64,000 bases of DNA from Yuukianura sp. NJ FZ-2021 (GCA_046563655.1 CM102289.1:3410001-3474000), one strand, 5' to 3'; numbered from the stretch's first letter, positions 10,401-64,000 are shown. Translations and numbers: made by a program. Notes: generated by a model from the sequence alone, not told the origin.

Positions 10401-13400
10401 AAGTGGAACTTAATTTACTCCCATGTAGGTGTGACAATATTACTTAGTTTAACAGTGTTCTTAAACATGGTCGCGGAAACAATGCCAGCAACCTCAGACG
10501 CAGTGCCTTTACTAGGTAACAACACCATTCTCACACCTTCAGCCAGTTCGTTTTGTGTCCGGTGCCTTTGGATCTGTGATGTTTTACTTCATTTTAGTTC
10601 AGAAAGCTATATGGACCATTTTGTTTTTTCTTCTTTTTGCCTTAACAAATTATTTTCAAACGGAAAAAAATATTTTGAAAAACCTAATTTTAAAATGTTT
10701 TTTCTCCACAAACAAATAAGGCAAAGAGTTATGTGTAATGATGACTGTTTATTTTAGACTCAAAATCCTTTTTAGCGACACACGCTTAATCTGGTGTTGG
10801 ACGGTGACAAATTTATGAACACTTTTCGATTTTGAAATTTCATTTTTTCCTTACTTCTGTCTCTTCTCTCTCATATTTGAACTTTCTCTTGTCTTGTTTT
10901 TACTTATTCACTTCACGCTGAGAACTCCAAACTTTTTTTTAGAGTTCAGAAGCCGTATAGTTTTTTTCTTCTTTTGTAATGCACATTTTAGTCTAAATTT
11001 TTAACCGTCTTTTTGAGAGCCCACTTGACTTTCTCTTTCACTTTTTTTCTGTGTCGCTCTTCTGAAGTCTTTTCTCCACTTCACAGTTTATATCTCATTT
11101 CACATGAGTGATTTTTGAATGAAGACTTTGTGCGTCGACTGAAGCCAATTGAACATCCAAGGGCTCCTAACGTAGCCTTTGAATAAGGCTCAAGGACCCC
11201 GGGAAATAATTTAATCAAATTAAAGGCATTAGAGTGAAGCTAATCACAATTCAGCAGGTTCTCTATGCTTCCCTTCTTTCACTTTGTTCCCATTCATACA
11301 ATGTTGAGTACTAGAGCAACTCATGAGTCATTATTTGCCAAAAATTTGGAAAAAGCCGTATGAATTACCAAACAAAACTATGTATATAGCTAGTTTTAGT
11401 TCAATCTTGTGCTAAGTTTACATGTAACCTCGATGTTGACCGTTGACATTCCGCAGGAGACGCTTTTATCTCGCAAGCACACTTCAAGAAACTGAAAATA
11501 CTGAATTGAGATCTTCTCTGTCAGTTTGCAATCTGCCAAGGGAGAGGCAGAAGTCCATGCGGAATTTATTTGGCAAATCCTTCTGGAAAACAGAGTCTTA
11601 GCTTGTGTAATTCCTAATATTCTATTATTTTATATGCCAAAGTTTTCTTTCTCAATTTCCATTGCCAAAGTCGTGCCAAAAGAGATTCCAGGAGGAAAGA
11701 CTTTTGGCAATATCCCTCCTCCCCCTCTAACCCAGATCAAATATTGAGAAAATAAATTTTCATTTGAAAGGAATGGTATTCCTTTTTGCTCATAAATCTT
11801 GATCTCCCTGAAATGGAACAGAAGAAAAAGACACTTTTCCATCAGAATGAATATACACTGCAGGAGAAAGTTACCTTAAAAAAAGTTAAATCTTAAAAAA
11901 ATGTTCTAAAAAAACTTCCGAACTTGTCACCTTGGCAGACTGTGAACTCGACTTTTGAGAATTAGAATAAGTTATTTAAAATTTTTAAATTTCGATGTTA
12001 AATATTTCACTTTCACCGTAAACGGAACTCTTAAGTTTCATCCTGTACTTTTATCGTACACAATTTTATATTGTATATTGTAAATTAGGTGTGACAATAT
12101 TGCTGTCATTGACGGTATTCCATAACCTCGTGGCAGAAACGCTTCCTCAAGTCTCGGATGCTTTACCAGTTCTAGGTATAATTATTTACGTTGCACAAAA
12201 GTTATTAACAGTCAATTCAACACGCTCCCCACCCTGGCTTACCTCAACTCTTGTTCTAACAAGTTATAGCAGTCTCACCTATAAACTTTTACCCCCCACC
12301 CTAATTTTCACCCTAAGTCATTTTTTGGTATTTTACTGTAGACTTTCTTCAACCTTCACTATCAACTCACACTATCGCCTCTTTTGAAACTGATACGGTT
12401 TTTTCCAAAGACGATTTTTGGCAAATAATTTTGGTACCACTGTAACCCGCCGTAGGGCTCTGTGTAGTCCGCAACTGTAAGCAAACTTTACCAAACTGCT
12501 GCCTTCCTTTGGACATTTGGCAATATCAATTGCAAATTTGAATTCCAAATTTTGTGCAAAAAATTCCCAGTACAACTATTTGTACACCATCACTTTTGTA
12601 CTTTATCTACTGGGAGACACAGTTTTGAAGAGTAGAAGCGATTTGCAAGTCTCTAGAAAGCAATCAATCTACTCGACTCCATTTGGAGTACTGTAATAAA
12701 GTGTCTCATGTGAAATGGGATCGACATCTCAGCACAACTCACAAATTCCATTTACTTTCTTCTTTTTTCACTCACTTTTTTCATGATTCATAATTTTGAA
12801 ACCAAAGAGAAAGTTTTCAAATTTGTCATTTGTTGTGCATCCAGTGTCGTTGCATTTTTTGGCAGCATGTTTTTGTACACACAGTTTTTATACACAAATG
12901 TTGAACACTATTTGCTTTCACTTGCCAGGAAGAAGCAACTCAAATGCACCCTGGTTGTTTGTTTTTGACTGCCGAAGTGTAATGTTAAATTTAGTTTGCT
13001 CTGTACACCAAGCTTTGAATCTTATACGAAAGCCTGTTTTTGGCAATTTGTTTTGTTTTGTACCAGAGCATTTGATTCGAAAACGATTGGAGATCTGATT
13101 TGTAGTTCCGTTGACTAATGAAATTTGTTGCATCTTCCTCTGTTCAATTCTAGGTACATACTTCAATTGTATCATGTTCATGGTAGCCTCTTCAGTGGTC
13201 TCAACGATTTTAATCTTGAATTATCATCATCGGAACGCTGACACGCATGAGATGTCTCAATGGGTAAGCATCAAGGACTTTCTCCGCTTTTACTTCCCGC
13301 CCAAAAAATTTTCTCGACGTAATCCACAATGCGCGTTTAGAACTTGTATCCGAAGGCTTAACGTCGCATTTGTTCGCTTTGCCTAAATTGCTAAAGCCTC

Positions 13401-43700: not shown

Positions 43701-46700
43701 AAGTTAGATTGTATCTATGTAAACCTTACCAAACCTCGGTAGAGCCTAACTTGTGACAACTGAATACCGTATGTTCGGCTGCCAACTTTAAAAACTTTTT
43801 TTCCCTCCTTTCCCTCCCACCCCCAATTCCGAGATTTGCCAAGCGGCAGCTACGCTCCGCAAGACTACTGGCACTTTTCGAGCTCTGTCGCCAAATTCGA
43901 CTTTTCTAACCTAACCTAAAGTAAATTCACTTCACACCAATGTAATAATTAACCCAACATAATTAATTAACGTTTAAATTAACCTAACCTAGTTAATTAG
44001 CGTAATACCCTATCCTAAAATAAATTTAATTCTAAATTATTATGAATTGACCTAAAATTAGAACAAACTAACCTTTTTTGAACTAGTTTTGAACTTTTTT
44101 CAAAATTTTGAACTTTTCCCAAAATTTTGAACTTTTTTCAAAATTTTGAACTTTTCCCAAAATTTTGAACTTTTTTCAAAATTTTGAACTTTTCCCAAAA
44201 TTTTGAACTTTTTTCAAAATTTTGAACTTTTTTCAAAATTTTGAACTTTTCCCAAAATTTTGAACTTTTTCGGTTTTAAACTTTTTTTTTTCAAAATTTT
44301 GAAAAAAGTTCAAAATTTTGGGAAAAGTTCAAAATTTTGGGAAAAGTTCAAAATTTTGAAAAAAGTTCAAAATTTTGGGAAAAGTTCAAAATTTTGAAAA
44401 AAGTTCAAAACTAGTTCAAAAAAGGTTAGTTTGTTCTAATTTTAGGTCAATTCATAATAATTTAGAATTAAATTTATTTTAGGATAGGGTATTACGCTAA
44501 TTAACTAGGTTAGGTTAATTTAAACGTTAATTAATTATGTTGGGTTAATTATTACATTGGTGTGAAGTGAATTTACTTTAGGTTATTTGAGAAAAGTCGA
44601 ATTTGGCGACAGAGCTCGAAAAGTGCCAGTAGTCTTGCGGAGCGTAGCTGCCGCTTGGCAAATCTCGGAATTGGGGGTGGGAGGGGAAGGAGGGAAAAAA
44701 AGTTTTTAAAGTTGGCAGCCGAACATACGGTAGCAGGGAATGTCATTGAAGTGAGTTTCAGTATTGATAAACTCCTTCAAGATCCCGCCTGTTCCACGTT
44801 GAGTGAAAGTCATTTGAAGGAATGATTTATGAAGTTCAGCTTGCCTCGTGGAGAAATCAGTGAAAGTGATGGAGTCCTTTGGCCCAATTTCCAAAAAGTT
44901 TTATGCAGGTCCATGCTCATGCTCTGTATTTTGTGTCTCTCCTTTGAATTCCAGGTCGCTGTTCTGAGGATGAGGAGAAACTAGTTCGTGATCTATTTCG
45001 TGGTTACAATAAATTGATACGACCCGTTCAGAACATGACGGAGAAAGTCCATGTCAAGTTTGGACTCGCCTTTGTACAGCTCATCAACGTGGTAAGGCCT
45101 TGCGTGCTGGAATTTTTAATTTGGAAACTTATTTGGTGTAATTGGTTCCGTGTCAGTCCGCATCTTCACAGTCGTTTAACAAAACACGCACCCTATAAAC
45201 CACACAAAACAATTAAACTTAAATTAACCCACGATTAAATAAACAATTAAACCAAATTTCAAAGGGTTTTGCTTTGTACTTTGTTTAACTCCTCCAATTT
45301 TCTAGATGAGAAAATTCTCCTGCAGTTTTACTCACTCGCATACTTGAATTTCGTGAAACAGCGAGCAATATTTGCAGTAAAAAATGTAATTACCTAAAAT
45401 TTTTTTTTAAATTTTCGTGTAATAATTTTTCAAAATGCATTGTACTTCTGACCCAACACAGGATTTCGTAGAATATCACCAAAAAAATGAAAAAGCGTTA
45501 AAAAAAATCCCGCCAGCAAGATATGTGACAAAATTTCAAACTTTCCAATAAAACATTAATATCGAAAACCTTTTGGCGTAGAGCGGGACGTGGTTTGTGA
45601 TGATGAGAACTTCAACGGTGCAGGGTTAGCTCATGATGTTGTGGTACGAGAACGAATTCTTTTGAAATTCCCGTATTCCCCAACATCCTTTGCAAAGAAT
45701 AGATCCGAATGAAAGTCATTTATTTCTATTTTTGGACAAACATATACTAAGCTCCGGTCCAAAATCGAATTTCACCACAAAAGAGTGCCCCAAAGTCCAA
45801 AGTCGATGTGGTTTCTGCAAAGTTTTGTAAACTTTCGGAACTTGATGAACTTTCGAAATCCATAGTATTGAATGTATCGCTCAATTGAGTCAAATTAGAA
45901 TTAAAAAAATAACTTATTTACTTGAAAAATTAATAAAACTAGGCAACAGTCCATTAACTCTTTTAAAATAATATTTCTGTTTCCCAAATATTTTGGACAA
46001 TAAATTAATATAAATTGGTTCACATTTTGATAAATTTTTTAGAAAAAAAAAGAGTTCATTCGCAAGCCAATTGCTGTGTTTGTTCATTTCAGAATGAGAA
46101 GAATCAAATTATGAAGTCCAATGTTTGGCTCCGTTTGGTAAGTTTCTTTTGTTCAACGTTTAGCTTTGAATCCAAAAACTACCTTAAGGTAGTTGTATCT
46201 CCGTCTGTCGTAACTCTGTCACTCAGTCCGTCACTGTGGTTAGTTACCATAAACCTGTCAACTGTGAAGTACGCAACGACTTAGCCGGATTTTCCCGCTT
46301 TCCTAAATTTCCCGCACAGTCTAGAAAGCATGACTTCTACGACGCTCTGTCTCATAAAGTAATTTCAACTTGACTATAAATTAGAACCGGGAGTCTTGAG
46401 GCGATTAGGTGAACTCCTCTGTGACCTTCCATCTTGGCACCAATGTTATGCTAGGTATAATGCTAGGACGAAGGGCGTTGGAGTGGGTCTAAGTAGCTAC
46501 ATCAGTGTCTTCCATGACTGACACTTCCGTCACCCGTACTGCCATTCGAACCGACTGTTTTCGTGCTGGCATGAGACACCTTCAGATCAGACACCAACTT
46601 TTGTCCAATTTGTATCACGTCAAGCGAAAAGCGGGAACTGTGTCCACTCCGGAACTGACACGAGAGGCAGGAAAAGACATCGTTCCAGTTCAAAATGGAC

Positions 46701-49700
46701 GGAACCGGGACAAATCTGAGAGAGAAAGTCAAAGGCTCGTGTCAAAAAAATTATAGATACAGAAAAGCAATATGAAACTTCAGCGTTTTTCCGCTTCCAT
46801 CACAACTGCGTTGAACTGAAAACAAAAATGGACGACTCTCCTGATTCCTCACGATTCAGCAGCAGTAGATGCTGCTGGATTCTGAGCAACTACCATCATC
46901 TTCCTTGCTAGAGCTCTAGACTCCATTTCTGACACTTTTAGCACCCCCACCGAACCATTGGAGAAATATTCGGGGAATCGTAACTCAGGATTTGCTCATA
47001 CTATAGCCTTCATCTTTAGTCTTCCTTATATCCATCTATGCAATCAGATAAAAAAATGGGAAGTGGAAGAGTAGTACTTTAACAATAGTTTAGCAACATT
47101 CCTTTTTCATCACACGGAATGTTCTCACATTTTTCATAAGACCTACAATAAAAGAAGGAGCACACAAAACGAAATACTCGACTTTGTCATCCCTTCCCAT
47201 TGCAAACAGGGAAAAATTGGGAAACTTTTCTCCAGAGTGAAAGTAAAAAGTGAAAAAGAATTTTGGAAAAAAGAAAAGATGTATTACGCTGTGAATATTT
47301 TACAAATCACTCTGCCTCGATTTTTTACAACTATGAAAAATGACCAGCTCTGAGACCGCAATCCGTAGTGTCCACAGTGTACAATTATTAAAATTTTAGT
47401 AAATACATAGGAAAGCTAAGTCCTTGAAAAATGAATAGAAACAACACAATTGTCAGAATTCTCTTGTCCTATAATTTGTCTTTCAAAATTTTGTTATTGA
47501 TTCCCTAAATTTCTGATTTCAAAAATTTAGTAAAACTCACGCCATTGTTTATTACTCTACTCTGACAGTTTTAAAATTGTGGAAGTACATGGTCGTATCT
47601 CTAATGATTTTGAAAGTTTTGTGAGCGAGTAACCACAAAACTGCGGTAAAGCACGAAACTTTTTAAAGTTGTAGTAGTAAAACAGTGTAATTTTCATTTG
47701 AATTTAAAAGTGTTAAATTTAAACCACTTTCTGCGTGCTGTCCAATAATATGCTTAATTTAAACTTGTTTTACTGTTCCTTTGCCTAACTTCTATTTGAA
47801 AAATAGTGAAGGTGGGAAAGGCCTAGACACAGTTCTAAGCTCTCGCCTTTGTTAAGCGGGCAAGTCTAAACTCGTTTTGAATTTTGAACTGTTCCAACTT
47901 TGCCCATTTCCTAAAAAGTACGGGAGGGAAGACTGAAACGGAAAATGGCGGGAAACGCTGTAGAGTCTTTCCATGAGGCTCCTCATTTTCTATTCCATTT
48001 TCTTAACTTAAAACGAATTAGAGAGTCGCATCGCTTCTATGCAAAATGAAGCGAAAAAAAGAGCTCGGTGCTCCTGCCTCGCACTTTGGCCTCGCTCCTT
48101 TTTTCCTTTTACCTAATAATTGTTTCCACTCAAAGGAACGTAATTTAAACTGAAAAATTGAATTCCGTTTTTTCTGAGTCCCGTTCATTCCAAACGGCAC
48201 TTTGTTTTAAAACAATCTTCTGCCTCATCAAACCAAAGGACTTCAGACTCATTTCATTAATTTTTTTTATAGAATGTGAACGCGTACAACCTGAACAGAT
48301 TTTTTTACGGCCTCAATGCATTGCAATTCATAGCGAAAAAAAATTTTAGTTTTGTTTCAAAGTTAACAAAAAAGGGAACAAGGAATTGACTAAGGATTTG
48401 GTTTTAGACAAAACTAGTTTAAAAACTGTGGCTTCGAATTATTTCAAAGGTGCAACTTTTCACAAAGGAAAAAGTTATTCAATAATTTCGAACTTTATAA
48501 CAGTTCTACTGAAACTTTTTGTAAAATGATTAGTATTTCGGTGAAACTTTTTGAAACAAAGTGTTGGTTTCAAACTACTATGAACTGAGATAGCTGTAGG
48601 ACGTCACGGAAGTGGCGTACACTTTTGAGTACTAAAAAATGTATTTCCTTTGACTTGTTTTTGTTTTTGCTCCTGAAACATTTATGATTTTTAGTCTAAC
48701 GTCTCTCCATTTTCTCTTTGAGCAAAGGACATGAAGTATGGAAGTCATTTTGGAACTGTGTGTTATACGAAATAGCGTAAAAATAAATTGTTTCGTGAAG
48801 TTTATTTGTTAAGGGAGAGCAGAAGTAGAAGGAGTAAGTAAGAGCAGAGGAGAAAGAGTCAATAAGGAAGGAGTGAAAGAACCCGTAAAAGGGAACGGAC
48901 TTTCTTTTTTAGGTTTCTCAGGGAAAGTCATGACGCTAGCAGAGTGTAGTGCCGTAGTGGTGCCAAGTCCTGAGCCATTTCCTTCTACTTCGGTCGTAAG
49001 TGACCTCTGGAGCTCCTTCCTTTTCCCATTCTCTTATTTCGTGTAACAACCATTAAGGGCTTCAATGACCTCTTCGTTCCAATATCCGACATTCGACGTA
49101 CTGTCTCACACGCAAACTTTTCTCTTGTAAACTTACCTAACATAATCTACCTGTCCACCTTAACCTAAACCCATTTGAAAGAAATTAGTCGAAGGAGGAC
49201 GCTAATTTAAGGATATGTTCATGTCTTGTTCAATTCCATTACTTCCTAATTGAGTTCATCTCCCTACGGTTACACCTTAACAATAATGTTAACCTAACGT
49301 AAACTACTGATCAATTCTTGTTAGCTGGACTAAAACACAATTGTCTAACCAAGTCATTGGCGTTCTGTTCAAATGTGTTCCACTCCTAGACCCAAGCTTC
49401 CTTGACAACGAAAAGTTGATCTTCTTTAACAGGTTGAGTACTACTTCGCTGGTTGACAAAAAACGAGAAATCACAAAAAGTTAGTACCAATCCGAAAAAC
49501 TGGTACCAGTTCGTATGCAAAACTTAAAAGATTCGGCTGTATTGTTATGACTACAATGCTCCAACATGGAAATACTTTTAAAATCGGAAAAACATGTAGT
49601 ATTACCCAACCTTTTAAACAAAATCAAATTTAAAAAACCTTGGATAGACCTACCCCATTCGCTTTTAGAGCACTCAGCAGTAGTCCAACGGTGTAATGTG

Positions 49701-52700
49701 TAATGGACCATACGTTTTCATATTTGGGTTTGTCCAGGATGTTAGCAATTGCGGTAAAATGTTTGTATGTTGTAGGTCTGGAATGACTACCAGTTGAAAT
49801 GGGATGAGGCAGACTACGGTGGGATCGCTGTTCTACGTCTTCCGCCAGACAAAGTCTGGAAACCTGACATAGTTCTGTTCAATAATGCTGATGGGAACTA
49901 CGAAGTCCGCTACAAGTCCAACGTCCTGATATATCCCAACGGTGAGGTTCTCTGGGTTCCGCCTGCGATATATCAGGTACTACTCCCGCTACTTGAGTAC
50001 TTTCTGTTTTGCACAATGAGAGCGACAGCGGGTTGGAAAATGGCGGGAAAGGAGTCGTGTTTTTGAATTTTGTTTTTCTGTGTGCCATTGTCCCGCGTTT
50101 TCCATTTTCCATGTGAACTTCATTAGATTTTATTCTAAAGAGTTTTGGTTTATTATGAAAATTCCCCAGAGCTCATGTACCATAGATGTCACTTACTTTC
50201 CCTTTGATCAACAAACCTGCATAATGAAATTCGGTTCCTGGACATTCAACGGCGACCAAGTTTCACTCTCACTGTACAATGATAAGAATTTCGTTGACTT
50301 GTCCGACTACTGGAAATCAGGTAAGACTTGACATTTTATGTTCATTTTAGTAAATTACGTTTTGTTAGAGTTAGTTCCTTCTCTACCTTGCCAGATTAAA
50401 AGGCTTTCTCTTTTTCCCATTTGGGACCACATGCTACCTTATGCCATTGAATTAGTCATTTTTCAAGCTTCCCCTTTGCAATCACTGTCACAACTCCACT
50501 TTCTTTTGTTTAGTAAATGAAAATCTCTGACTCATTTGTCTTTGGCACAAAACAAAAGTAGTCTCTAAAAGCCCAACGACGTTTTTCCAACATTATAGTT
50601 TTACTTAACAATTGAGGCAACCCTGCAGGTAAACAATTCCCTTTCCTAACCTTACACGAAAGCCTAGCCTATAGAAAACCACTACAAACTGAATATTTTA
50701 ACAAACGAAAAAGAAAGTGAAAACAAGTTTTCACTTTCCGCTAAAAACTGAAAATTTAGCAATCTATTTTTGTCCAACCAAGGCGGCGGAACGAGAGTGC
50801 GTCACCCGCTGCATCTGGCACAAAGATTAACTGCTACAAAAGTATACAGAGCAAAAGGTTTCCAAACGTCACTTTCACCTTCCTAGGACTTTCTCCCTTA
50901 GGAATCCAAAGTTAGGTTTACGTTAGGCTAAGGTTAGGTTAGGTATTGACAGTAGGAAATTTAAAGCTACTCGTGTGCTCGCATGAGCATGTTAACTTAC
51001 AATGTCCTCAGAGAGTTTCTTGTTTCCTTTGGTTTAACCTGGGCGATGTTAGGTTAACTATGTTCAGGCTTAGATGTAAAAAGAGCGTACAGAGTTCAAT
51101 GCCTTCTTTAAATATGAAATCCCCGCCAAAGAAATCCTACTAATCCAAACTACTTAAGGAGAAACTCGAGTTGTTTTAGAAGAAAGCGGAATGACGCCGC
51201 CTGAGACTCATTAAAAGTTAAAGTCCTCAAGGAAATTGAGTCAAGTTGAGCAGAAAAGGCCTTTAGAAATCCCTTAGCCCAGTTCTAACTTTAGCCGCAC
51301 CAAAGTTTTCTCTCAACTGAACCCGCCTGCTTTCAACTATTGTTACACTTGGTATATCACAATACTTTCACTCGTTAGTAGTAGAATAAGTCCATTTTGT
51401 CAATTTTGGCTCAGTTTTTAAAACTTTTGTTTTGGTTTTTCTAGGGACTTGGGACATCATCGAAGTGCCAGCTTATCTGAACGTAATAGCCGGAAATCAC
51501 ACCGAGACGGATATTACATTTTACATCACAATTCGGCGGAAAACGCTCTTTTACACTGTCAACTTAATTCTTCCCACGGTTTTGATCTCCTTCCTCTGCG
51601 TCCTTGTGTTCTACCTTCCGGCAGAGGCGGGTGAAAAAGTGACTCTGGGAATCTCAATTCTCCTGTCGTTGGTCGTCTTTTTGCTCCTCGTTTCAAAAAT
51701 TTTGCCGCCAACGTCCCTCGTCCTCCCACTCATTGCCAAGTACCTCCTCTTCACATTCATCATGAACACTTTCTCCATCTTGGTCACCGTCATCATCATC
51801 AACTGGAACTTCAGGGGCCCTAGGACTCATCGCATGCCGCACTGGATACGTGTCGTCTTTCTCAAGTACTTGCCGGTAAGTGTCCGTCCATTCCAAAGTG
51901 GACAGTTCCAGGCAACCTATAACCTTTCAAAAGTTCGACAGATCACACCAAGGTTCCTATAGCAACGAAGTAGTTTTTCTTTAACAGGTTAGGCAATAAG
52001 TCCCTTTCCTAAAAATGTCGCTGCAAATATTTTCCCCCTTATTTTCCCTTGAAATTGTTTACCGCTCTTTTTGTGTAAAATTCAAAAGTTTGCTCCAAAC
52101 TGGACGTTCAAAATAACGAGAAAAAATTTTGGAGCAAGAATTCATGAAACGAGAGCTGCCGTTATGCCCTTTAATTTTTGAAATTTCGAAGAGTAAGACA
52201 TACAACAACGACTTATTGCTTAACCTGTTAAAGAAAAAACTATTTTCTTGTTTACAAACCTTGGATCACACGTTCGCATTGGCTTTTCTACATTTGACGT
52301 TCAAGAGCCATTGAACAACGTCCACGCGTCCTAACTTTTCCTAAGCTGAACCTGACATTTCTGCCTTTGGTATCTATGGGTTTTGTGTTTCAAAGGAATT
52401 TTTAATCCAGCTCTTTTTTTCATTTCAGATTTACCTTTGCATGCGGAGGCCAAGGAAAACGAGGCTGCGGTGGATGATGGAGATGCCTGGAACGGAAGTT
52501 CCTGGATTCGGGAGTGCGGAGCGGGCACCGCCTCCGAATTCGGGCTTCCACATGCCCGAACTGCCACCGAAACACTCACTGGAAGCTCTGGAACTGGCGG
52601 ATCTCCACCATCCTAATTGTAAAATTAATCGAAAGGTACTTGACTCGGACTTAGTTCCTACAGGAATCACACGAACATGTTCGTCTTACAAATTCTAACC

Positions 52701-54865: not shown

Positions 54866-57101
54866 CCCAAGGGAATTCCTTATTCAAAAAAAAGCGCCAC
54901 TACTACTACCACCACCAGCCGCCATGCGAATCGCGAATTCATTAATTCAGTTTTAGTTTCTACTGTTCAGTTCCAAATACTCAAAGCGTCATGGCCAGAA
55001 GTGCACGTCTTTTTTTCTTTTTCTATACTGCCATCACCATGACTCGAAAATTTTCAATCCTCATCCTACGGTGCTTCCACTTCAATGGAGATTTCAAATT
55101 TTGCACAAATTAAACTTCCCGCGCTCGCTCCATGGATCCACTTTGGCTTTTTAGTTTCCATCCTTTGTTTTTCCTTCTTCAAAAGCTTTGTCACTGAAAT
55201 GGGAGAAACAACGGTGCTCCAATCAGAGTTACTAAAATTGCTTTTTAAAACAGCCAAAACTTCTAACCCGTTTGAAAATTGCTCATTCGATGGAGTTTAA
55301 AAAGCAAAAAGGACTCCCAGAGGGAGCGAGAGCAGCAACATAAACACAAAACAAAACGTAATAAACCTAACCTAACAAACTCAGACTAAGAATTCAAGAA
55401 TGCTCAAGCTTTAATTAAGGATAAGGATTTATAGTAAAGACTTTAGAAAGAGACACAGTGAAAACTAACAATAACAGTTAAGTCAAATTGTTTCTCATTG
55501 TTATCCTAACTTGCTAGGAAGCGAGTTAAAAGAAAGCAAAAACCAAGTAGACTAATTTAGTTTAAATTTAAATGTACAATTGTAGTTAAGTATAACAACT
55601 ACGATGAATCTTCTGCCTAACATGTAAGGATGCACTTTATTTTCTAAACAGGGCTTAACCTTTTAACTATGTTGTGTTAAATGTTTAGTATAACTTGGAA
55701 TATGGTGATAAACCTTTAGCTAAAGTTGCAATCTGACACAATTTAGGTGCTTGTTCGTTCTAAATGTTAAACAATGGTTACTAATACTAACTAAATGCAA
55801 AGTTTGAAGTTTTTTATGGACTTCAGCGGAGAGTAAGCTTAGAGTTAACAGTAAACTTGCTAAACTGCCGTTTTGTAAATACCACTAACTAGGGGTAATG
55901 AACTTTAGACTTGTTGCGCATGCGTGCGATTGTGTGTGTGCTTGAACAAAAGCCCGAATAGTGCATGTGAGGCTTTAGAATCACAACTATGCTAAACTGT
56001 GTTGGAGTTTTTTCGACGCTTTAAAAAACTCTGGGTTGAGTATTAATTTAAACTACTTAAAAAATCAAATTGTCAGATTTTATGTACCTCAGCACAGGAA
56101 AAACTTTTGTACTAACTAAAAATAACAATAACTTTAAGTTGAACAACTAATTTGACAAGGGTGTGAACTACACAATTTACCCAATGGTTGTTTTCAGGCC
56201 AAAACGTTTTAGATATGTGTCAATTCAAGCAATTTTGGGTTGTGATTTCTCAGCAGGGATACTAAATGTGCAGTGTTTTTGAAATCAAGTTAAATTCTGC
56301 CAGAAGCAAAGAGTTTTTTAGTTAAACGGGGCTGATAAGTGGTTGTTAAAGTCACAAATTAAAAGGCAAGAATTAACTACAAAGGCTCTCTCAGTGCCAC
56401 CCACTTCAAAAGCCAGAAAGTTTCACTCGAAAACAAAAGGAAATTGAATAAAAGAAACCAAATTGTTGAGAATTTAACACTGAACTTAATTAAATTCAAA
56501 CTCAGCCTTTTTTGAAGTTCAAAAAATAAAATCTAGGTGAGCTAGAACACATTTTTGAAAAAAAAAAGTTTCAAAATTCAAACTTATTGATCCAAAAGTT
56601 TTTAGTCAGATCGGAACACTTTTTTACAAATAGTAAAATTAAAGTAGATTTCAAGTTAGTATGTTTATGGAAGCAATTTAAATTCAATTTTTTTTTGCGC
56701 AAACTCTACCATGTGGATTAAAGTCTAGCATTTTTGAAAAATTTGTTATTCAATTTGTGCAAAATATTAACGCAATTGAACTGAAAACATTTAAACTCAT
56801 ACTGTTTTTTTTTTGAATTTTTAAGCACTATGTTTTTATGCTTTAAGAGGTCAGATCAAAAGGAGATGAATGAAGACGTCAATAAAACCTGGGTCTTTAA
56901 CTAGGCTAAACGTGGTGCAGAAGGTCATTTTAATTTAAATAGATTTTCTTAATTGATAGAATGGACTTATCCAGTTTCCCCCTCTTGTTTTAGATTTCAA
57001 CATAGATGTACTTCCAAAGTGTATTCATCCACGAAACAAACAAACGCCGTTGATCTGTGTTCTAAACACAAACAGGCATAGAATTTCTTATACACAGAAA
57101 A

Positions 57102-59193
57102 ATGAACGGAAAAGTACTTTTCGGAATATTCATCGTTGCGTCAATTCAGTATGGTAAGCGAAAAAGAGTATACTTAAAGCGCTGAAATTTAAGTCTAATT
57201 AACTAAAATTTGTTCAAAATGCATTTTTTAATTTTTGAAACACAATATTGCTTCTTAGGTTACACTAACAACTTGAAATTTTCCGATTTTTTCAGCAACT
57301 GATGCGAGTTTAGATGAAGGGGAGCTGGTCAAGCAATTGCTAGATACGAGAACTTACAACAAAAACATTTTTCCTCAACCTGCTACAAATGGATCTGCAC
57401 TCGACGTTAAAATTGGAATGTACTTTGTTTCACTAGCTGAAATTGTAAGATTAACCTAACAGATTTTAGTTTAGCTAAAACTTAAGAAATTGTAAGGCAA
57501 AGGTCAAATTTGCCTCAATTGACCCGGAGATGAATTTCAGATAGGTTTCTAAGAAGTGGCTTTTTTTTGTTCTAGAATGGAAAAGAGGGCTACATGACTT
57601 CGTCGCTTCGACTTACATTGGTACTTTGATTTAAAAATACAATTGTCCTTTATATTAAAACAAAAGTTGTTGTCATTGGTTGTCAGTAGACATGGAACGA
57701 CCCAAGGTTCAAAGTTAATGGCGGCAAGGGGAGCATCGTTCCACGTATATCAGAAGCCAGTGTTTGGAAACCGTCAATTCAATTTATCAATGCGTATGCC
57801 CAATTTTAAATAAAAAATTAAGCAAGATTCAATCTTTTTAATATAGTATCTTATTCCGAAAATTTAAATTTAGATACGACAAGCAACCAAACATGGAAGA
57901 CGACAAAGTGTCGATTTACCCCGAAACTGGAAAGGTCATTTGGAATCCAAAAGTTTTGGTTAAGGTTGCACTTTTCAGAAAGTTTGTTTTTTAATAAAAA
58001 GACTTAAAACTAACTTATACTTATTATACTAACTGTTTTCTTTGCAGACAACTTGCAACATCGATGCCTACTATTTTCCATTTGACGTGCAAAGTTGTGT
58101 AATAAAAATAAAAGACCGTGTTCACACAACTGATGAGCTCCATCTATCAATTTCTGAGAACAACGTTAACATGCACAGTTACATCAAATCTGGTAAATTC
58201 CTAAAGCAAATTCACGCTGTGAATAATTTGATATGGTTGACATGAGATTACTAACGAATTTTACTGACTGAATGTAGGAGAATGGACATTCATCTCTTCC
58301 GAAGTTCGCAAAAGCCTCCTTAATCCCGAATCCAAAATGGAACCAGCCACGGAACGTTTGACTTTTCGAGTAACTTTCCGAAGAAATCCCGGGAATTTTT
58401 TTGTGACGCTTGTCGTTCCGCTCATTTTGGTTTCTTTTGTTTCCATTTTAACATTCCCGCTCCCAACAGATTCAAAAGAGAAACTCGTCCTTGGCTTTGT
58501 CTCGATCATCTCGATACTCCTACTGTTAATTGACATGGCCAATGTCATTCCACCTTCAGCCATTGGAATTCCACTTGTCACGAAATATGCCATTTTCGTC
58601 CTAATTCTAAATATCTTTGCCATCCTTGCAACAATTCTAGTTTTGCAGTTGGCCTCCAGAGAATCAGATATGCCTGAAATGGTGCGAAATATCGTTCTGA
58701 CCAAACTGGGGGTAACGTTACATTTTGTGCAATCAATTTCATTTTATGTTAAGAAACTATTGGTATCCATGCTACTGTACGTAAACTCATCAATGATGCT
58801 GTATTTTCTAGAAATACGTGTTGATTAGTTCACCGGAGTCCACAAATTCTAAGCAAGGACCAGACACTGTGCAAGAAAACCAGAATCACGTGGGACAAAA
58901 CGAAGAGGAACCTCAAACTGAAGCGGAGTCAACAATACTAAATACGTTGCACAAAAAGAAAATGCAAAACGAGGTAAATTTTAGAAGAACATGAAAAAAT
59001 ATCGCACATGAGTTAGTGTTGCTGGTAAAACTTTACAAAGACTTTCAAATTTTAACAGAGAAACGAATTATGGAGAACAGTAGCAGCCATTCTAGATCGA
59101 ACTTTGTTCATCGTTTTCACACTGGTCGCAGTTATTGGAATGGCAGCTTACTTAGTAAATGCAAACGCAGCAGATGTAGTGACAGAAAATTAA
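57102..59193 (+). CDS. divergent non-alpha nAChR-like (Cys-loop) subunit, 438 aa, beta1-derived
   Basis: Exons 57102-57153, 57296-57444, 57576-57620, 57690-57793, 57874-57964, 58048-58192, 58278-58711, 58812-58973, 59059-59193 (1317 nt, in phase). Signal peptide, WNDPR, VWKP, Cys-loop CNIDAYYFPFDVQSC, four hydrophobic segments, W..VA.ILDR before M4. Confidence 0.9.
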
Positions 59194-59498
59194 AATGGAA
59201 AATAGACGCTTAGCACATAGATATGTCTGATAAACTTAAGCTTTAGTGCATCACGTGAGCTCAGTTTAAGTTTGCGTAAAGTACACTAAAATCTGCATTT
59301 TATTACAACTTAAATTCATACGGGAATTAAAACTAGAAACGTATATTTCAAGGTTGAGCTTTTCTGGTATACAGTGTTGATCGTAACTTTTCCCATTTCC
59401 ATTTCGTCGTTGCTAACATTAGTAATCTAAAGTCCATCCAAAAAAAGTTTAGTTTCTAGGAAACAGTTTCCGGTTTTGGCGTTAGGTTAATTTTAGTA

Positions 59499-61114
59499 TC
59501 ATCGAACAGACTCGTATCCTCCTGGTAAGCCATTCTTCGTCATCACTATTTGCCAGAGTTGATACTTTCTGGACCTAAAAGCTCCAATTGACAGAGACAA
59601 ATAGAAGTACCACATTCGGAAGAATGTTTGATCGTATTTAGCAGACAACTGAGGCCAAGCTTTGACAAATTTTTCCCGCCAAGCTGTAAGTGTCTTTGAA
59701 TAGTCATGTCCAAAGTTGTGCCAATCTTCAACAATGAACAGACCGTTGCATTTCTCCAAGATTTCAGTGTGGAACGGCAAAATTCCGTTCGGAAAAATGT
59801 ATTGATGAAACCATGGTTCAATTAACGGAATACCAGGGTGACTCACGCCTAAAAATTAAAGGAGAAAAATTTCAAGGTTCAAAAAATACACAAGAATTGA
59901 AACAAAGAAAAACTTGTCATAAATGCTCATACCGATTGTGTGAAGAAGAAAAATTCCATCGTCTTTTAAACATTTAGAAGCCAGTTTGAAGAAGTTTCGA
60001 AAATTGCTTGTTCCAACGTGCTCGAACATGCCGACGGAAACAATCCGATCAAATTTTTGATCCAAATCTCTGTAGTCCTTAAGAACAATTTGAACTGGAA
60101 GTCCTGCGCAGGATTTTCGTGCCAAGTCCGCCTGCTCTGTTGAAATCGTGCATCCCACGACTGCTACTTTATAATTTGCCGCCAAATACTTGCAGAGGCT
60201 TCCCCATCCACATCCAATGTCTAATACTGTCATTCCTGGTTCCAGTTTGAGCTTGTCTCCAATCAACTTCATTTTGTGCTCCTGCGCTTCATCCAAGTTC
60301 TGCGCTCGTTTCCAGTAACCACAACTGTAGTTCATCGATTTATCCAAAAATGCTTCAAATAAGTCATTTCCTAGAAACAAGAAAAAATGTTTTAAAAAAA
60401 CTATTGAGTTCATCAGGAAATGCAAGCAGAACAATATATTGGTCACTGTGATCATTTCACACTTTTCTCATTTCCTACTTTCAAAACCTGTCTGCAAATT
60501 GCATTTCGCGCTTTGTGCAATTTGAAAACACCGCCCCCTTCTTTCATCACGATGCACAATATACAACACCACTCTAACCTACAGATGTACTGACTAATCA
60601 GTGTTTTGTTTTAAAAAACTGGTCCTACCCGCTTTTAAATTTTAAAATTTTATAAAATGTTACAAAAAAAAATTGAATCCACTTTAGTACCTTTGTTGTA
60701 ATGATCCTTAGCTACTTGCCAAGCTCGAACTCTAGTTTGCAAATTGCAGATTTTGAAGAGCAAGAAGTTGACAGTTCTATTAATAAAGTGCATGTACTTT
60801 TTGTACAGTTCAGTTTTGAAAATGACGTTGAGCAGTTCGTCCAATTGGTCGCACTCCCACAAACCTTCCATGTACGTTTCTCCTAGTCCCAACGAAGCAT
60901 TATTTGCAAGTCTCACGTAAAATTCCCGCTCATTTTGCTTATCGATTTGAATGTCGAACGGACGGTCGCCATTGATTTGGATTCCATGAGACACAAACTG
61001 ATGTCGGACGTATGCTTTTGCAAATGGGTAGAAACAAATGATGAGGAACTTTTCAATCTGCTTGTACACGGTAACCAATAAGACGATGATTCTGTAGAAG
61101 AGGCTTCCACACAT
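59499..61114 (-). CDS. cfa: cyclopropane-fatty-acyl-phospholipid synthase, bacterial Cfa type, 403 aa, two introns
   Basis: Exons 61114-60691, 60370-59933, 59848-59499 (1212 nt, both introns phase 1, GT-AG). Motifs SLGLGETYMEGLWEC, HY..GNDLF, YSCGYW, VLDIGCGWG (SAM binding), FDRIVSVGMFEHVG, FLLHTIG, YIFPNG, EDWHNFGHDY, GAFRSR..QLWQ align with E. coli Cfa as recalled. Confidence 0.93.
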
Positions 61115-62693
61115 CTTGGACGCACCGACAATAGAAAAGAATTTTTCAAACGAAAATATGTTTTTCTTCTAAAAATTTAGTAACAGAAGACCAAAGCAAA
61201 TATTCTTGTGGCCATCAAACGTTTTTATTCCGCCAAGCTATTACTTGATCCGCTAACGTTAACTTTTGGTCTGATTTCACTTCAAGCACAAAACAAGTAC
61301 GCTAGACCACCACGCTACAATCAAAGGACAGAACTGGTCTGAGATGGATCAAGTCTCTTTGGCAATAATCGTTTAAAGTTAAGTTACTTGCTACAGTAGT
61401 ACTAAACGCATGTTTTTTGTTTGAGTACATGTAATACATGAAATGAATACAACAATGTATGCAGAGTTACAGATCGTATTCGCAACACCTTTCTCACAGT
61501 GTGTTGCCTCTTAGCTAAATTCACGAAATCAAAAGTATTTTGTCTTGCGGCTACCGGTTCCTTCACTTCCTATTGTATGTGCGGTGCCATTACGACTGCC
61601 ACCGCCACTCAATTTCGAAAAAGAAAACTATTCTGTAAATTGAAAAATGTCAAGAAATTTTAACTCCCCAAATCTATCCCGTAGCGGTAAAACTTGTTTC
61701 CACGTCAGATGATATCGTATTTAATCTAACTCACAAGAATGGGATACTGACGGCGACAAGTAGAACTTTTTTCAAAAAATGAATTTTCAAATGTTCAGAT
61801 CTGTTTTTACAGATTTAGATGATTTATGATTTATGTCTTTTTGAATTTAGATTTGCAGAAGACTTTTTTATAAATTACATTTTGGCTATTGGAAATGGAA
61901 CTCAGAAAATGAAGAAATGTATACCGTGTAGCATGTGTTGTTGATTTGCATAAACTTTCTAATATTGAAGTTATGAAAAACTTGCTGAGCAATTTAAGAG
62001 ATGTCAAATAACCTGAAAGAAACCTGTTTTGTTTACATTGAGGAAGTAAACATTCAAACTTAATATTTCACGAGAGAAGCTACCGGTGTAATGTTCTTGT
62101 CAAAATCTTGTCAAAAAAGGTGCAAAATCTAGGTCATTCTCCCCGTCTCTTTGGCGTTATCTTTCATCTTGCTCAAAAATCATTTAAATTGATAAAAAAA
62201 ACTAATGAAAATCAAATGTAGAATTACGCCATTATTTCAAATTTCACTTTCATAAATTATAGTCTAAAGCGCAGCACTCAACTCCTTAATGTGTTTATGG
62301 ATGAAGTAGGTCACGGGTCCATTTTACTTTCATTGAAGGTGATTTTTGTTTAAATTATGACAATAAAAACAGGCCTTGACCTAAATTCTCGGGTCTTACT
62401 CTAAATGTTATGTTTGTCAATGCTCCATAACCTTACCATGCTTTTAGAGCTTTTGGTCTAGCCAAGGTCCATTTTTCATTCTGATCTTGACCTTAAAACA
62501 TGGACATCCACGTCACTGTCAAGGTTGTTCTAAGCACTTTCCTATTAATCAACGGAGTTACGCAAGGTCAGTATTCTGAGTCTGAAATATTGGCAATTTA
62601 CTGCAATGCGGTGTTATTCAGTTTTTGAATGGTTAATCGCCGTTTTCCAGTTGCGTACTTAATTTTAACTGTTAATTGTATTCAACGATGCAG

Positions 62694-63896
62694 GTACGGT
62701 GGAAAACAACGACGTTGCCAATCAAGAGCGTTTCGATGGCACAGGTACTAAATTGGATTTAAAAGTAAGCCAGACTAGTATGCCTTGTAAGTATGCGTAA
62801 TTAATGTTTAATGTCGAGGGCTAACCTGGAAAACCGTAACAAATCGACGCTTGCTTCAAGCTGAAACCCAAGGTTTCTATAGCAACGGTTGCTTCATAAG
62901 GTTAAGCAATAAGTCTTGTTTTCCAAAAATCTCACTCCAAACTTTTTTTTCACCCAAGTTTCACCCAGAGTGGCTGAAAAGACATCACGGCGGCTGATGT
63001 ATTTTCGTTTTTGAAATTTTGGGAAGAAAAATATAACAATCGAGGTATTGCTTAACCTTATGAAGCAAGAACTATTCCGTTGCTATAGAAACCTTGCTGA
63101 AACCGGAACAACTGCGCAGGCCAACGTCATTTCAAACAAAAAACGGTCCCTGCGCTTCAAAAGAGTAAATTTTCAACCTTCTTTGTCAGCATCAGAGACA
63201 TCCGATCGGGGGCAGCACCGTCTCGCCTTACGACAAATCGAAAAGATGCCATTCAATGGACAAGCTCCGTTGCAACCGAATTTTCCAACTGCGAATGTCA
63301 ATAAGCCATTGCATTCAGGGTCCAATCAGATGGCTTCAACGGGGCCTTATAGTTTGCCCCCGATGTCAATTTTCCCTCTGGCGTTTAATTCAAATCCGAC
63401 AGCATATCCCAGCCCTTACGCCTTTCCGGGAGTACAACGTGGAGCCTATCAGCAACAATCAATGCAACACCCATTAGGCCAACTTCAAATGAATCCGATA
63501 TACTACTCCGTCCCGCCTTATTTACTTCAAAATCAATTCCAGCAGCCTTTTGCATTTCCCGCTCCAGCAGGACCTTGGACTGGACCACAAATGACCGTCC
63601 CACCGTACTTCCCGCCTCCATTTTTCCCTAGTTCATCGCCTCCATTTCTTCCATATCCAGCAACGTTACATTCACCACCTTCGGACAATACGGTAACTCA
63701 AGCAAATTTTGTAAAATTTACTGAATTTGTAACTTGGAATTTGGTACAGAAAAATTCTACTGGAGATACTAATAGTAGCAGTGAATTTGCACACAGCGAA
63801 GAACAGATCACTCCCACCGTAGTGCCCATTGAACCAGGCGATACAGCACCGGTAGAGGGCAGTACTGATGTGAATTCAGCATCATCAAATTCACAG
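62694..63896 (+). CDS. internal exons of an unknown Pro/Gln-rich low-complexity protein (partial)
   Basis: Candidate exons 62694-62786 (phase 1-1) and 63190-63896 join in frame; 235 open codons in AT-rich DNA; no recognisable domain; start and end not identified. Confidence 0.6.
62869..63096. mobile_element. MITE, same family
   Basis: Exact flanking duplication CTGAAACC (62861-62868 and 63097-63104); TIR caaggtttctatagcaacgg / ccgttgctatagaaaccttg. Confidence 0.88.
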
Positions 63897-64000
63897 GTAA
63901 TGAAATACACCATGACAAATAAGTTAAGGCCTAGTTAATAATTGTGCGATGATTACCTCTTTGACATGAATGAAAATGCGATTTAATAGTAGTCTGAGTC

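What the first reader, a model, noticed from the sequence alone, without database searches (positions are those of the whole stretch)
59499..61114. Bacterial-type cyclopropane fatty acid synthase domesticated in an animal genome
Seen: full-length Cfa with two spliceosomal introns, host-like composition, and a stop 305 bp from an animal receptor gene, so contamination is unlikely. The SAM motif and the Glu (MFEH), His (LLHT) and Tyr (HDY) bicarbonate ligands known from E. coli Cfa are retained, and there is a hydrophobic N-terminal extension. Known: Cfa is chiefly bacterial and aids membrane stress tolerance; most animals lack it, although cyclopropane fatty acids have been reported in some millipedes. 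Inference: horizontal transfer giving an arthropod its own lipid cyclopropanation. Similar genes may already be annotated in other soil arthropods.
Basis: partly seen in the sequence, partly recalled or inferred. Interest (0 to 1): 0.8.

Follow-up and report, generated by a model that had tools for sequence, protein, structure and literature searches.

The report
Bacterial-origin cyclopropane synthase in an arthropod
An intact, intron-bearing gene for a bacterial-type enzyme that puts cyclopropane rings into membrane fatty acids sits between ordinary animal nerve-receptor genes, and it belongs to a small group of such genes already annotated, but never studied, in springtails and a velvet mite.

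Summary
On the minus strand, 61114..59499, three exons separated by two GT..AG introns (320 and 84 nt) encode a 403-aa protein with no internal stop. It matches E. coli-type cyclopropane fatty acyl phospholipid synthase end to end. It keeps the SAM motif and all five bicarbonate-site residues. The neighbours are Cys-loop receptor genes of arthropod type, and the nearest receptor stop codon lies 305 bp from the cfa stop.

In two trees the protein falls in a well-supported clade (100/98) with Cfa proteins of the springtails Orchesella and Folsomia, the mite Dinothrombium, and unnamed environmental sequences. This clade lies among bacterial Cfa sequences, and the donor is unresolved. Clade members share a one-residue insertion and a hydrophobic N-terminal extension, and indirect evidence suggests they share the intron-1 site.

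Cfa genes appear among horizontally transferred genes in a 2016 supplementary table for Orchesella cincta.

Two links appear in no paper my searches returned. Springtails make cyclopropane cuticular hydrocarbons with no known enzyme. Soil ecologists treat cyclopropane fatty acids as purely bacterial diet markers. Expression and activity remain untested here.

The parts
60691..61114 (-). cfa exon 1. It encodes residues 1-141 plus one base: the hydrophobic N-terminal extension and the N-terminal (lipid-binding) domain.
   Evidence: Translation. NCBIfam NF008686 model positions 17-121, 94.4 bits. The first ATG after the upstream in-frame stop is at 61114.
60371..60690 (-). Intron 1: 320 nt, GT..AG, phase 1, inside the Gly142 codon.
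   Evidence: GC is 32.5%. The spliced product aligns without a gap across the junction. Truncated gene models of relatives break at this site.
59933..60370 (-). cfa exon 2: SAM-binding Rossmann core with VLDIGCGWG, Cys158, Glu258, His285 and Ile287.
   Evidence: Pfam CMAS 2.2e-57. NF008686 250.8 bits. PDB 6BQC 1.2e-55.
59849..59932 (-). Intron 2: 84 nt, GT..AG, phase 1, inside the Gly288 codon of HTIG|V.
   Evidence: GC is 25.0%. It appears absent at this site in three relatives whose single-ORF gene calls run through it (P0005, P0011, P0023).
59499..59848 (-). cfa exon 3: C-terminal part with Tyr337. The stop codon is at 59501..59499.
   Evidence: Pfam CMAS 2.1e-20. NF008686 150.4 bits.
59299..59304 (-). 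AATAAA, a candidate polyadenylation signal 195 nt after the cfa stop.
   Evidence: This is a motif match only; no RNA data.
59056..59193 (+). Context: last (TM4) exon and stop codon of the neighbouring Cys-loop receptor gene, convergent with cfa and 305 nt away.
   Evidence: ORF. (Neur_chan_memb positions 203-232 of 233, E 0.019, weak).
58268..58825 (+). Context: TM1-TM3 exon of the same receptor gene (coordinates are ORF bounds).
   Evidence: Pfam Neur_chan_memb 1.8e-12.

Best explanation
This is a resident, intact arthropod gene that descends from a bacterial cfa gene acquired by horizontal transfer. It is one member of a family shared by springtails and at least one trombidiform mite.

Shown here: the three-exon structure, its place among animal genes, its position in the arthropod Cfa clade, and retention of the SAM motif and all five bicarbonate-site residues.

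Inferred: the protein is held at an internal (probably ER) membrane by its hydrophobic N-terminal helix. There it transfers a methylene from S-adenosylmethionine onto a cis double bond of a phospholipid acyl chain, with bound bicarbonate as the base, as E. coli Cfa does. The animal would thus make its own cyclopropane fatty acids.

More speculative: these acids tune membrane stress tolerance, or feed cuticular lipid synthesis.
For: Structure and family.

Catalytic residues: E. coli C139, E239, H266, I268 and Y317 all align to identical window residues, and the columns for C139, E239, H266 and Y317 are identical in all 20 sequences of that alignment; at I268, 18 have Ile and 2 (P0015, P0033) Met. 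A passage in PMC3132707 says these five are strictly conserved in non-plant enzymes, while cotton enzymes have Q at H266 and two of the three have S at C139.

Identity over the full length: 61% to Orchesella cincta, 55-57% to Folsomia, 51-55% to Dinothrombium, and 49-54% to the bacterial and unnamed (bacteria-like) rows shown.

Trees:
- Quick tree of 110 rows: a 14-row clade holding the window has SH-aLRT 99.
- Careful tree of 68 rows: the same clade has 100/98, and (window,(Orchesella,(Folsomia XP_021968610,P0009))) has 100/99.

Shared derived features in the clade: one extra residue after HTIG in all 14, and an N-terminal extension in 13 of 14.

Intron 1: four truncated gene models of relatives begin or end within one residue of the window's intron-1 site. 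P0125 of O. dallaii ends there; P0005, P0011 and P0023 begin there. P0403, the transcript-length partner of P0023, reads through the site.

Genomic context: animal receptor genes lie on one side, and the X1 contig spans receptor plus cfa at about 1% divergence.

L002 (which encodes P0020, a clade member) looks like a cDNA, with UTRs and AATAAA near its 3' end.

An AlphaFold model of the Orchesella homologue, not of the window protein, matches E. coli CFAS 6BQC at TM 0.92 normalised to the target. It shows the extension as a helix over residues 3-34.
Against: - No RNA evidence exists for this gene, so the splicing and the start codon rest on homology and consensus sites only.
- No activity data exist for any member of the clade.
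- The bacterial backbone of the trees is unresolved. The nearest bacterial row, a Candidatus Peribacteria MAG, has only 90/77 support, so no donor can be named.
- The ultrafast bootstrap had not settled (correlation 0.923).
- Eukaryotic CFAS from plants, fungi and kinetoplastids were not in the trees.
- At least one protist transcript (an MMETSP member of the P0261 cluster) carries a related gene, so eukaryote-to-eukaryote routes are not excluded.
- The intron-sharing evidence is indirect: it comes from gene-call truncations, not genomic alignments.
- The hydrophobic N-terminal stretch contains an Arg and is short for a transmembrane helix.
Confidence: 0.75

Rival explanations
1. Bacterial contamination or a chimeric assembly: the gene belongs to a microbe and was joined to animal DNA by error.
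For: The family is overwhelmingly prokaryotic. Of 120 listed hits, 12 carry organism names, and 8 of those are bacterial or archaeal MAGs.
Against: Two GT..AG introns, AT-rich and with in-frame stops, interrupt the ORF. GC and GC3 are host-like. A divergent second-haplotype contig of 10,981 nt covers 55000-62859 and 63096-64000. A run from another study (X4) holds pieces of receptor, intergenic DNA and cfa at about 91-98% identity. The best 80 of 555 prokaryotic loci are only 41-52% identical to the clade's first sequence.
Confidence: 0.02
2. Vertical inheritance: an ancient eukaryotic or metazoan CFAS retained in a few arthropods and lost almost everywhere else.
For: The clade unites a mite and springtails, which are very distant arthropods, and they share an insertion, an extension and probably an intron. 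Other eukaryotic CFAS were not sampled in my trees.
Against: Among the 12 organism-named rows of the 120 best hits, the only eukaryotes are Folsomia and Dinothrombium. No insect, crustacean or other animal appears. The clade is separated from bacterial Cfa by a branch of only 0.17-0.26 substitutions per site, while E. coli plus Yersinia sit on a branch of 0.39-0.56. The Orchesella genome authors listed Cfa-like genes among horizontally transferred genes.
Confidence: 0.06
3. A decaying or silent relic: transferred and integrated, but no longer expressed or functional.
For: No RNA run was available and no activity is known. The terminal branch is fairly long (0.42).
Against: The reading frame is open across all 403 codons despite that branch length. 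All catalytic and SAM-site residues are kept. Splice sites are canonical. Relatives occur as transcript-like contigs.
Confidence: 0.07
4. The same fold with altered chemistry or substrate: for example, a methyl-branch or methylene product, or action on free, CoA-bound or very-long-chain acyl groups rather than on phospholipids.
For: The CMAS family includes non-cyclopropanating methyltransferases, such as the mycolic acid methyltransferases. The clade has its own insertion next to His285/Ile287 and a new N-terminus. The known springtail cyclopropane lipid carries its rings at positions unlike those of bacterial fatty acids, and it also has a methyl branch (abstract).
Against: All five bicarbonate-site residues are kept, and the best family match by far is the E. 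coli Cfa equivalog: 250.8 bits on exon 2 against 134-166 bits for the other cyclopropane synthase models.
Confidence: 0.1

Closest known systems
E. coli cyclopropane fatty acyl phospholipid synthase (Cfa; PDB 6BQC; NCBIfam NF008686)
   Same: Two-domain layout, SAM motif, all five bicarbonate-site residues, and a collinear match over model positions 17-382. The Orchesella homologue's model superposes at TM 0.92.
   Different: The window gene has two spliceosomal introns and about 18 extra N-terminal, hydrophobic residues. It has one extra residue after HTIG. It sits in an animal genome and presumably acts on eukaryotic membranes.
Annotated Cfa genes of the springtails Orchesella cincta and O. 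dallaii and Folsomia candida, and of the velvet mite Dinothrombium tinctorium
   Same: Same clade (100/98), same insertion and extension, and probably the same intron-1 site. Two O. cincta Cfa-like genes are listed among horizontally transferred genes in Table S7 of PMC4987106.
   Different: At most 61% identity to the best named homologues, so this is a different, more distant host. Intron 2 appears specific to the window's lineage.
Plant cyclopropane synthases (Sterculia, cotton)
   Same: SAM-dependent cyclopropanation of phospholipid-bound oleate in a eukaryotic microsomal membrane (passages of PMC3132707).
   Different: Plant enzymes replace H266 with Q and often replace C139 with S. From recall, they carry a large N-terminal oxidase-like domain. 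The window protein keeps the bacterial residues and has no such domain.
Mycobacterial mycolic acid cyclopropane synthases (CmaA1, CmaA2, PcaA, MmaA2)
   Same: Same catalytic fold and bicarbonate site.
   Different: They lack the N-terminal domain (287-302 aa) and match much more weakly, at 1.8e-29 to 7e-31 against 1.2e-55 on exon 2.

Membership tests
E. coli-type cyclopropane fatty acyl phospholipid synthase (NF008686 / Pfam CMAS PF02353) | CMAS catalytic domain with the class I SAM-binding motif | tested here: met
   PF02353 at 2.2e-57 (exon 2) and 2.1e-20 (exon 3). VLDIGCGWG aligned with E. coli.
E. coli-type cyclopropane fatty acyl phospholipid synthase (NF008686 / Pfam CMAS PF02353) | Bicarbonate-site residues C139, E239, H266, I268, Y317 (E. 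coli numbering; list taken from a passage in PMC3132707) | tested here: met
   Window C158, E258, H285, I287 and Y337 are identical to the E. coli residues.
E. coli-type cyclopropane fatty acyl phospholipid synthase (NF008686 / Pfam CMAS PF02353) | N-terminal domain preceding the catalytic domain | tested here: met
   Exon 1 residues 33-140 match NF008686 positions 17-121 at 7.2e-27.
E. coli-type cyclopropane fatty acyl phospholipid synthase (NF008686 / Pfam CMAS PF02353) | Whole-protein score above the curated equivalog cut-off (400 bits) | tested here: inconclusive
   Only the exons were scored separately: 94.4 + 250.8 + 150.4 = 495.6 bits, a rough sum. The spliced protein was not scored as one sequence.
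E. coli-type cyclopropane fatty acyl phospholipid synthase (NF008686 / Pfam CMAS PF02353) | SAM-dependent cyclopropanation of unsaturated phospholipid acyl chains | not testable with these tools
   Needs an enzyme assay or complementation.
Horizontally acquired Cfa clade of soil arthropods (springtails, trombidiform mite) | Placement inside the clade in a likelihood tree | tested here: met
   The 14-row clade has SH-aLRT 99 and 100/98. The window's 4-row subclade has 100/99.
Horizontally acquired Cfa clade of soil arthropods (springtails, trombidiform mite) | One-residue insertion after HTIG and a hydrophobic N-terminal extension | tested here: met
   The insertion is in 14 of 14 clade rows and in none of the 6 other (bacterial or bacteria-like) rows aligned. 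The extension is in 13 of 14 (P0015 lacks it and may be truncated)..
Horizontally acquired Cfa clade of soil arthropods (springtails, trombidiform mite) | Spliceosomal intron at the Gly142 codon (intron 1) | tested here: inconclusive
   Present in the window. Inferred in relatives only from four truncated gene models.
Horizontally acquired Cfa clade of soil arthropods (springtails, trombidiform mite) | Host is a springtail or mite | tested here: inconclusive
   The neighbouring nAChR beta-1 exon is 94% identical to an ostracod protein (76% coverage), 88% to the springtail Allacma fusca, and 81-86% to insects and crustaceans. The host is arthropod, but the order is unresolved.

The most novel reading that the evidence does not exclude
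The arthropod Cfa clade is the missing cyclopropanating enzyme of springtail lipid chemistry. Under this reading, springtails and some mites make cyclopropane fatty acids themselves. In some lineages these are elongated and decarbonylated into cuticular cyclopropane hydrocarbons such as sarekensane. The cyclopropane fatty acids that soil ecologists score as absolute markers of a bacterial diet would then be partly endogenous in these animals.
Probability: 0.35. Interest if true: 0.75.

Novelty: new member of a known kind. Interest (0 to 1): 0.5.

Why it matters
Animals are generally assumed not to make cyclopropane lipids, and two literatures meet at this gene.

- A dicyclopropane hydrocarbon, sarekensane, is the major cuticular lipid of the springtail Vertagopus sarekensis. 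The paper has no occurrence of 'synthase' and names no enzyme (abstract and passages of PMC10825826). The other two papers that mention the compound do not name an enzyme in the passages I saw.
- Soil food-web studies treat cyclopropane fatty acids as 'absolute markers' made by bacterial prey and not by the consumer, citing work on Collembola (passage of PMC6701827).

An intact cfa family kept across springtails would give the first a candidate enzyme and would question the second. Both are directly testable in Folsomia candida, a laboratory model. The gene is also a clean case of a bacterial gene that gained introns and a membrane-targeting extension after transfer.

Tried and rejected
- No whole genome is held for the window. 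Copy number in the host could not be checked.
- Earlier scan notes: nothing by place or by words.
- RNA evidence: no RNA holder was listed among the 5 runs. Expression was therefore not assessed.
- The exon-1 word search found only one bacterial protein.
- The metagenome scan returned 80 loci, nearly all contiguous bacterial-type ORFs. Only L002 was examined and found to belong to the clade. No genomic contig with introns was recovered.
- The profile search of 1.84 billion representatives collapsed the clade into very few 50% clusters and carries no names.
- The Folsomia genome paper's 3 held supplementary files have no 'cyclopropane' and neither GenBank accession. One file was cut when stored.
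- One supplementary file of the Orchesella paper was not searchable.
- The trombidid mite genome paper's main text has no 'cyclopropane'. Its supplements were not searched.
- Literature searches linking a Cfa gene to springtails, or to horizontal transfer in arthropods, found nothing relevant in main texts.
- Naming a donor was rejected because the backbone support is too low.
- The N-terminal lengths of bacterial homologues are over-estimates, because I took the first start codon in the open frame. I use only the E. coli comparison.

Full report
**What is there.** On the minus strand between 61114 and 59499 lies a three-exon gene.

| Part | Coordinates | Length |
|---|---|---|
| Exon 1 | 61114..60691 | 424 nt |
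| Intron 1 | 60690..60371 | 320 nt, GT..AG |
| Exon 2 | 60370..59933 | 438 nt |
| Intron 2 | 59932..59849 | 84 nt, GT..AG |
| Exon 3 | 59848..59499 | 350 nt with stop |

The spliced CDS is 1212 nt and gives 403 residues without an internal stop. My first junction for intron 2 was two bases off and was corrected. Both introns are phase 1, are more AT-rich than the exons (32.5% and 25.0% GC against 41.4%), and carry in-frame stops.

**Family.** The three exons match the NCBIfam equivalog model for E. coli-type cyclopropane fatty acyl phospholipid synthase, NF008686. The matches run in order over model positions 17-121, 124-267 and 278-382 of 383, with 94.4, 250.8 and 150.4 bits. Pfam CMAS matches exons 2 and 3. 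Among solved structures, E. coli CFAS 6BQC is by far the best match to exon 2, at 1.2e-55. The Aquifex enzyme is at 5.4e-32 and the mycobacterial mycolic acid cyclopropane synthases at 1.8e-29 to 7e-31.

**Catalytic equipment.** I aligned the spliced protein with E. coli Cfa (translated from L001) and 18 relatives. E. coli C139, E239, H266, I268 and Y317 correspond to window C158, E258, H285, I287 and Y337, and all are identical. VLDIGCGWG is also kept. A passage in PMC3132707 states that these five residues are strictly conserved in non-plant enzymes, and that cotton enzymes have Q at H266 and two of the three have S at C139. The window protein is therefore of the bacterial type, not the plant type.

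**The gene lies in animal DNA.** A Pfam scan covered 227 of the 237 stop-to-stop frames of 65 aa or more. The ten left out lie inside the cfa gene, and three of them had been scanned.
- The scan found only Cys-loop receptor domains, all on the + strand, at about 7.9-15.6, 44.9-52 and 58.0-59.2 kb.
- The exon at 51390-51959 is an nAChR beta-1 orthologue. It is 94% identical to an ostracod protein over 76% of the query, 88% to the springtail Allacma fusca, and 81-86% to many insects and crustaceans. The host is therefore an arthropod of pancrustacean type. I could not place it further.
- The last receptor exon (59056-59193; weak TM4 match) ends 305 nt from the cfa stop, tail to tail.
- AATAAA lies 195 nt after the cfa stop on the minus strand. 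ATTAAA lies 133 nt after the receptor stop on the plus strand. The two 3' ends therefore abut or overlap.

**Linkage and contamination.**
- Five DNA runs hold the stretch and none is RNA.
- In run X1 one contig of 10,981 nt covers 55000-62859 and 63096-64000, with 80 base differences and 25 gaps in the first piece. It is a second haplotype carrying receptor and cfa together. X1 is probably the source sample, so this is not fully independent support.
- Run X4, from another organism code and another study, holds short pieces of a receptor exon, the intergenic DNA (59213-59457), the exon 2/intron 1 boundary (60084-60440), and exon 1 with upstream DNA. These are roughly 91-98% identical to the window.
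Of these, 555 were relatives, and the best 80 are only 41-52% identical to the clade's first sequence. All 80 read through without a stop.

**Relatives.** Exon 2 found 7958 proteins at E of 1e-20 or better among 8000 scored candidates, and 120 were listed.
- Twelve of the 120 carry organism names: Folsomia candida (2), Dinothrombium tinctorium (2), six bacterial MAGs and two archaeal MAGs.
- Cluster look-ups added Orchesella cincta ODM99302.1 and an O. dallaii fragment.

| Homologue | Identity over full length |
|---|---|
| Orchesella cincta | 61% |
| P0009 (unnamed) | 59.5% |
| Folsomia (two proteins) | 55-57% |
| Dinothrombium (two proteins) | 51-55% |
| Bacterial and unnamed bacteria-like rows shown | 49-54% |

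**Trees.**
- Quick IQ-TREE of 110 rows: all hits of 340 aa or more, minus seven redundant or partial cluster members, plus the window protein and E. coli Cfa. It gave a 14-row clade with SH-aLRT 99.
- Careful tree of 68 rows: the 14 clade rows, E. coli Cfa, 48 of 173 prokaryote-type candidates kept by greedy clustering at 64% identity, and 5 named rows added back. P0004 and P0128 were left out. It gave the same clade at 100/98.
- Inside the clade, (window,(Orchesella,(Folsomia XP_021968610,P0009))) has 100/99. Its sister is a second Folsomia paralogue with P0082, at a weak 69/81. Further out lie an unnamed group (P0010, P0025, P0020), then the two mite proteins with P0042, then P0015 and P0033.
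- The bacterial backbone is unresolved. The nearest row, a Candidatus Peribacteria MAG, has 90/77, and the bootstrap had not settled (correlation 0.923). I name no donor.
- Plant, fungal and kinetoplastid enzymes were not available to me and are not in the trees.

**Shared derived features.** All 14 clade rows have one extra residue after HTIG (HTIGVSH or HTIGVNH types), and none of the 6 other (bacterial or bacteria-like) rows aligned has it. Thirteen of 14 have an N-terminal extension with a hydrophobic stretch. In the window there are 44 residues before the I-x-I-N-G motif against 26 in E. coli, and the best 17-residue hydropathy mean is 1.84. An AlphaFold model of the Orchesella homologue, built from the 13-row alignment A1 (mean pLDDT 83.9), shows residues 3-34 as a helix. 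The model matches 6BQC at TM 0.92 normalised to the target. This model is of a relative, not of the window protein.

**Introns in relatives (indirect).** Four truncated gene models break within one residue of the window's intron-1 site.
- The O. dallaii model P0125 is homologous up to ...KHYDLG and then runs into unrelated residues.
- P0005 (Orchesella cluster), P0011 and P0023 begin with unrelated residues and become homologous at (L/A)GN.LFE.
- P0403 is a 402-aa sequence on a 1462-nt contig in the same 90% cluster as P0023. It reads through that point, and the two align from P0403 residue 140 onward.

This is what a shared intron would produce. It also places the unnamed P0010/P0025-type group in eukaryotes. 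P0005, P0011 and P0023 run uninterrupted across the HTIG site, so intron 2 looks specific to the window's lineage.

L002, the contig behind P0020, looks like a cDNA: a 100-nt leader, an ORF at 101-1312, and AATAAA near its end.

**What it most likely does.**
- Shown: the gene is intact, integrated, has the full catalytic set, and belongs to the clade.
- Inferred from the E. coli enzyme: methylene transfer from SAM onto a cis double bond of a phospholipid acyl chain, with bicarbonate as the base.
- Inferred from the extension: anchoring at an internal membrane.
- Not shown: expression, product, substrate.

**What is already known.**
- The gene is annotated in Folsomia, Orchesella and Dinothrombium.
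- Table S7 of the Orchesella cincta genome paper (PMC4987106) covers GO terms enriched among horizontally transferred genes. It lists cyclopropane-fatty-acyl-phospholipid synthase activity with 7 genes annotated in the genome and 2 among the transferred set (Ocin01_07379 and Ocin01_09578, p = 0.0044; supplement read).
- That paper was not among the 7 returned by the full-text search for 'cyclopropane' plus 'Collembola', so the main text probably does not discuss it.
- The Folsomia paper's held supplements and the mite paper's main text do not mention it.
- Searches found no paper treating this gene in arthropods.

The finding is therefore a new member of a catalogued but unstudied family.

**Why it could still matter.** Sarekensane, cis,cis-3,4,13,14-bismethylene-24-methyldotriacontane, is the major cuticular lipid of the isotomid springtail Vertagopus sarekensis. 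The authors describe its cyclopropane rings as unprecedented in arthropod cuticular lipids, and the paper names no enzyme (abstract and passages). The two other papers that mention the compound name none in the passages I saw. Separately, a soil food-web paper calls cyclopropane fatty acids absolute markers that the consumer cannot synthesise, citing springtail feeding work (passage). No paper returned by my searches treats a cfa gene in springtails, so I found neither link made; both are open to test in Folsomia candida.

**Verdict.** Novelty is modest, with a testable and more interesting extension.

Noticed in passing
window 62869-63096: A 228-nt element with perfect terminal inverted repeats: 20 nt at 62869-62888 / 63077-63096, and 23 nt just inside them. 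Its contig depth is about 30 times the flanks. It is absent from the second haplotype, where contigs join 62859 to 63096. It looks like a polymorphic MITE insertion.
   Followed up: partly
window 7871-8077 and 8328-8582; 10371-10754 and 12022-12384 (+ strand): There are two tandem pairs of near-duplicate receptor exons. The TM1 pair is 62% identical over 55 aa and the TM2 pair 62% over 39 aa. They resemble the mutually exclusive alternative exons known, from recall, in insect nAChR alpha-6-type genes.
   Followed up: partly
window 44948-51959 (+ strand): This is an nAChR beta-1 orthologue with strongly conserved exons. Its TM exon is 94% identical to an ostracod protein and 88% to the springtail Allacma fusca. 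About 35 unnamed transcript-length environmental proteins match at 89-91%.
   Followed up: partly
window 63015-63935 (+ strand): A 307-codon open frame rich in Pro, Gln and Ser has no Pfam match even at E 1. Its start overlaps the MITE-like element. It may be an exon of an unknown low-complexity protein, or chance.
   Followed up: partly
run X4 at window 62896-63059 (table 5c): In the other organism's contigs, the MITE region is replaced by short inserts. One of them reads as CCTAA repeats, the complement of TTAGG. From recall, TTAGG is the usual arthropod telomere-type motif.
   Followed up: no
proteins P0261 and P0405: A related 412-aa Cfa with a hydrophobic N-terminus occurs as a transcript in a marine microbial eukaryote transcriptome set (MMETSP). 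Bacterial-type cfa genes may therefore have entered other eukaryotes too.
   Followed up: no
protein P0004: The top-scoring hit to exon 2 (329 bits at only 62% identity, 497 aa) groups with E. coli Cfa in the tree. The score suggests two matching stretches, that is, a duplicated or fused enterobacterial-type gene call.
   Followed up: no
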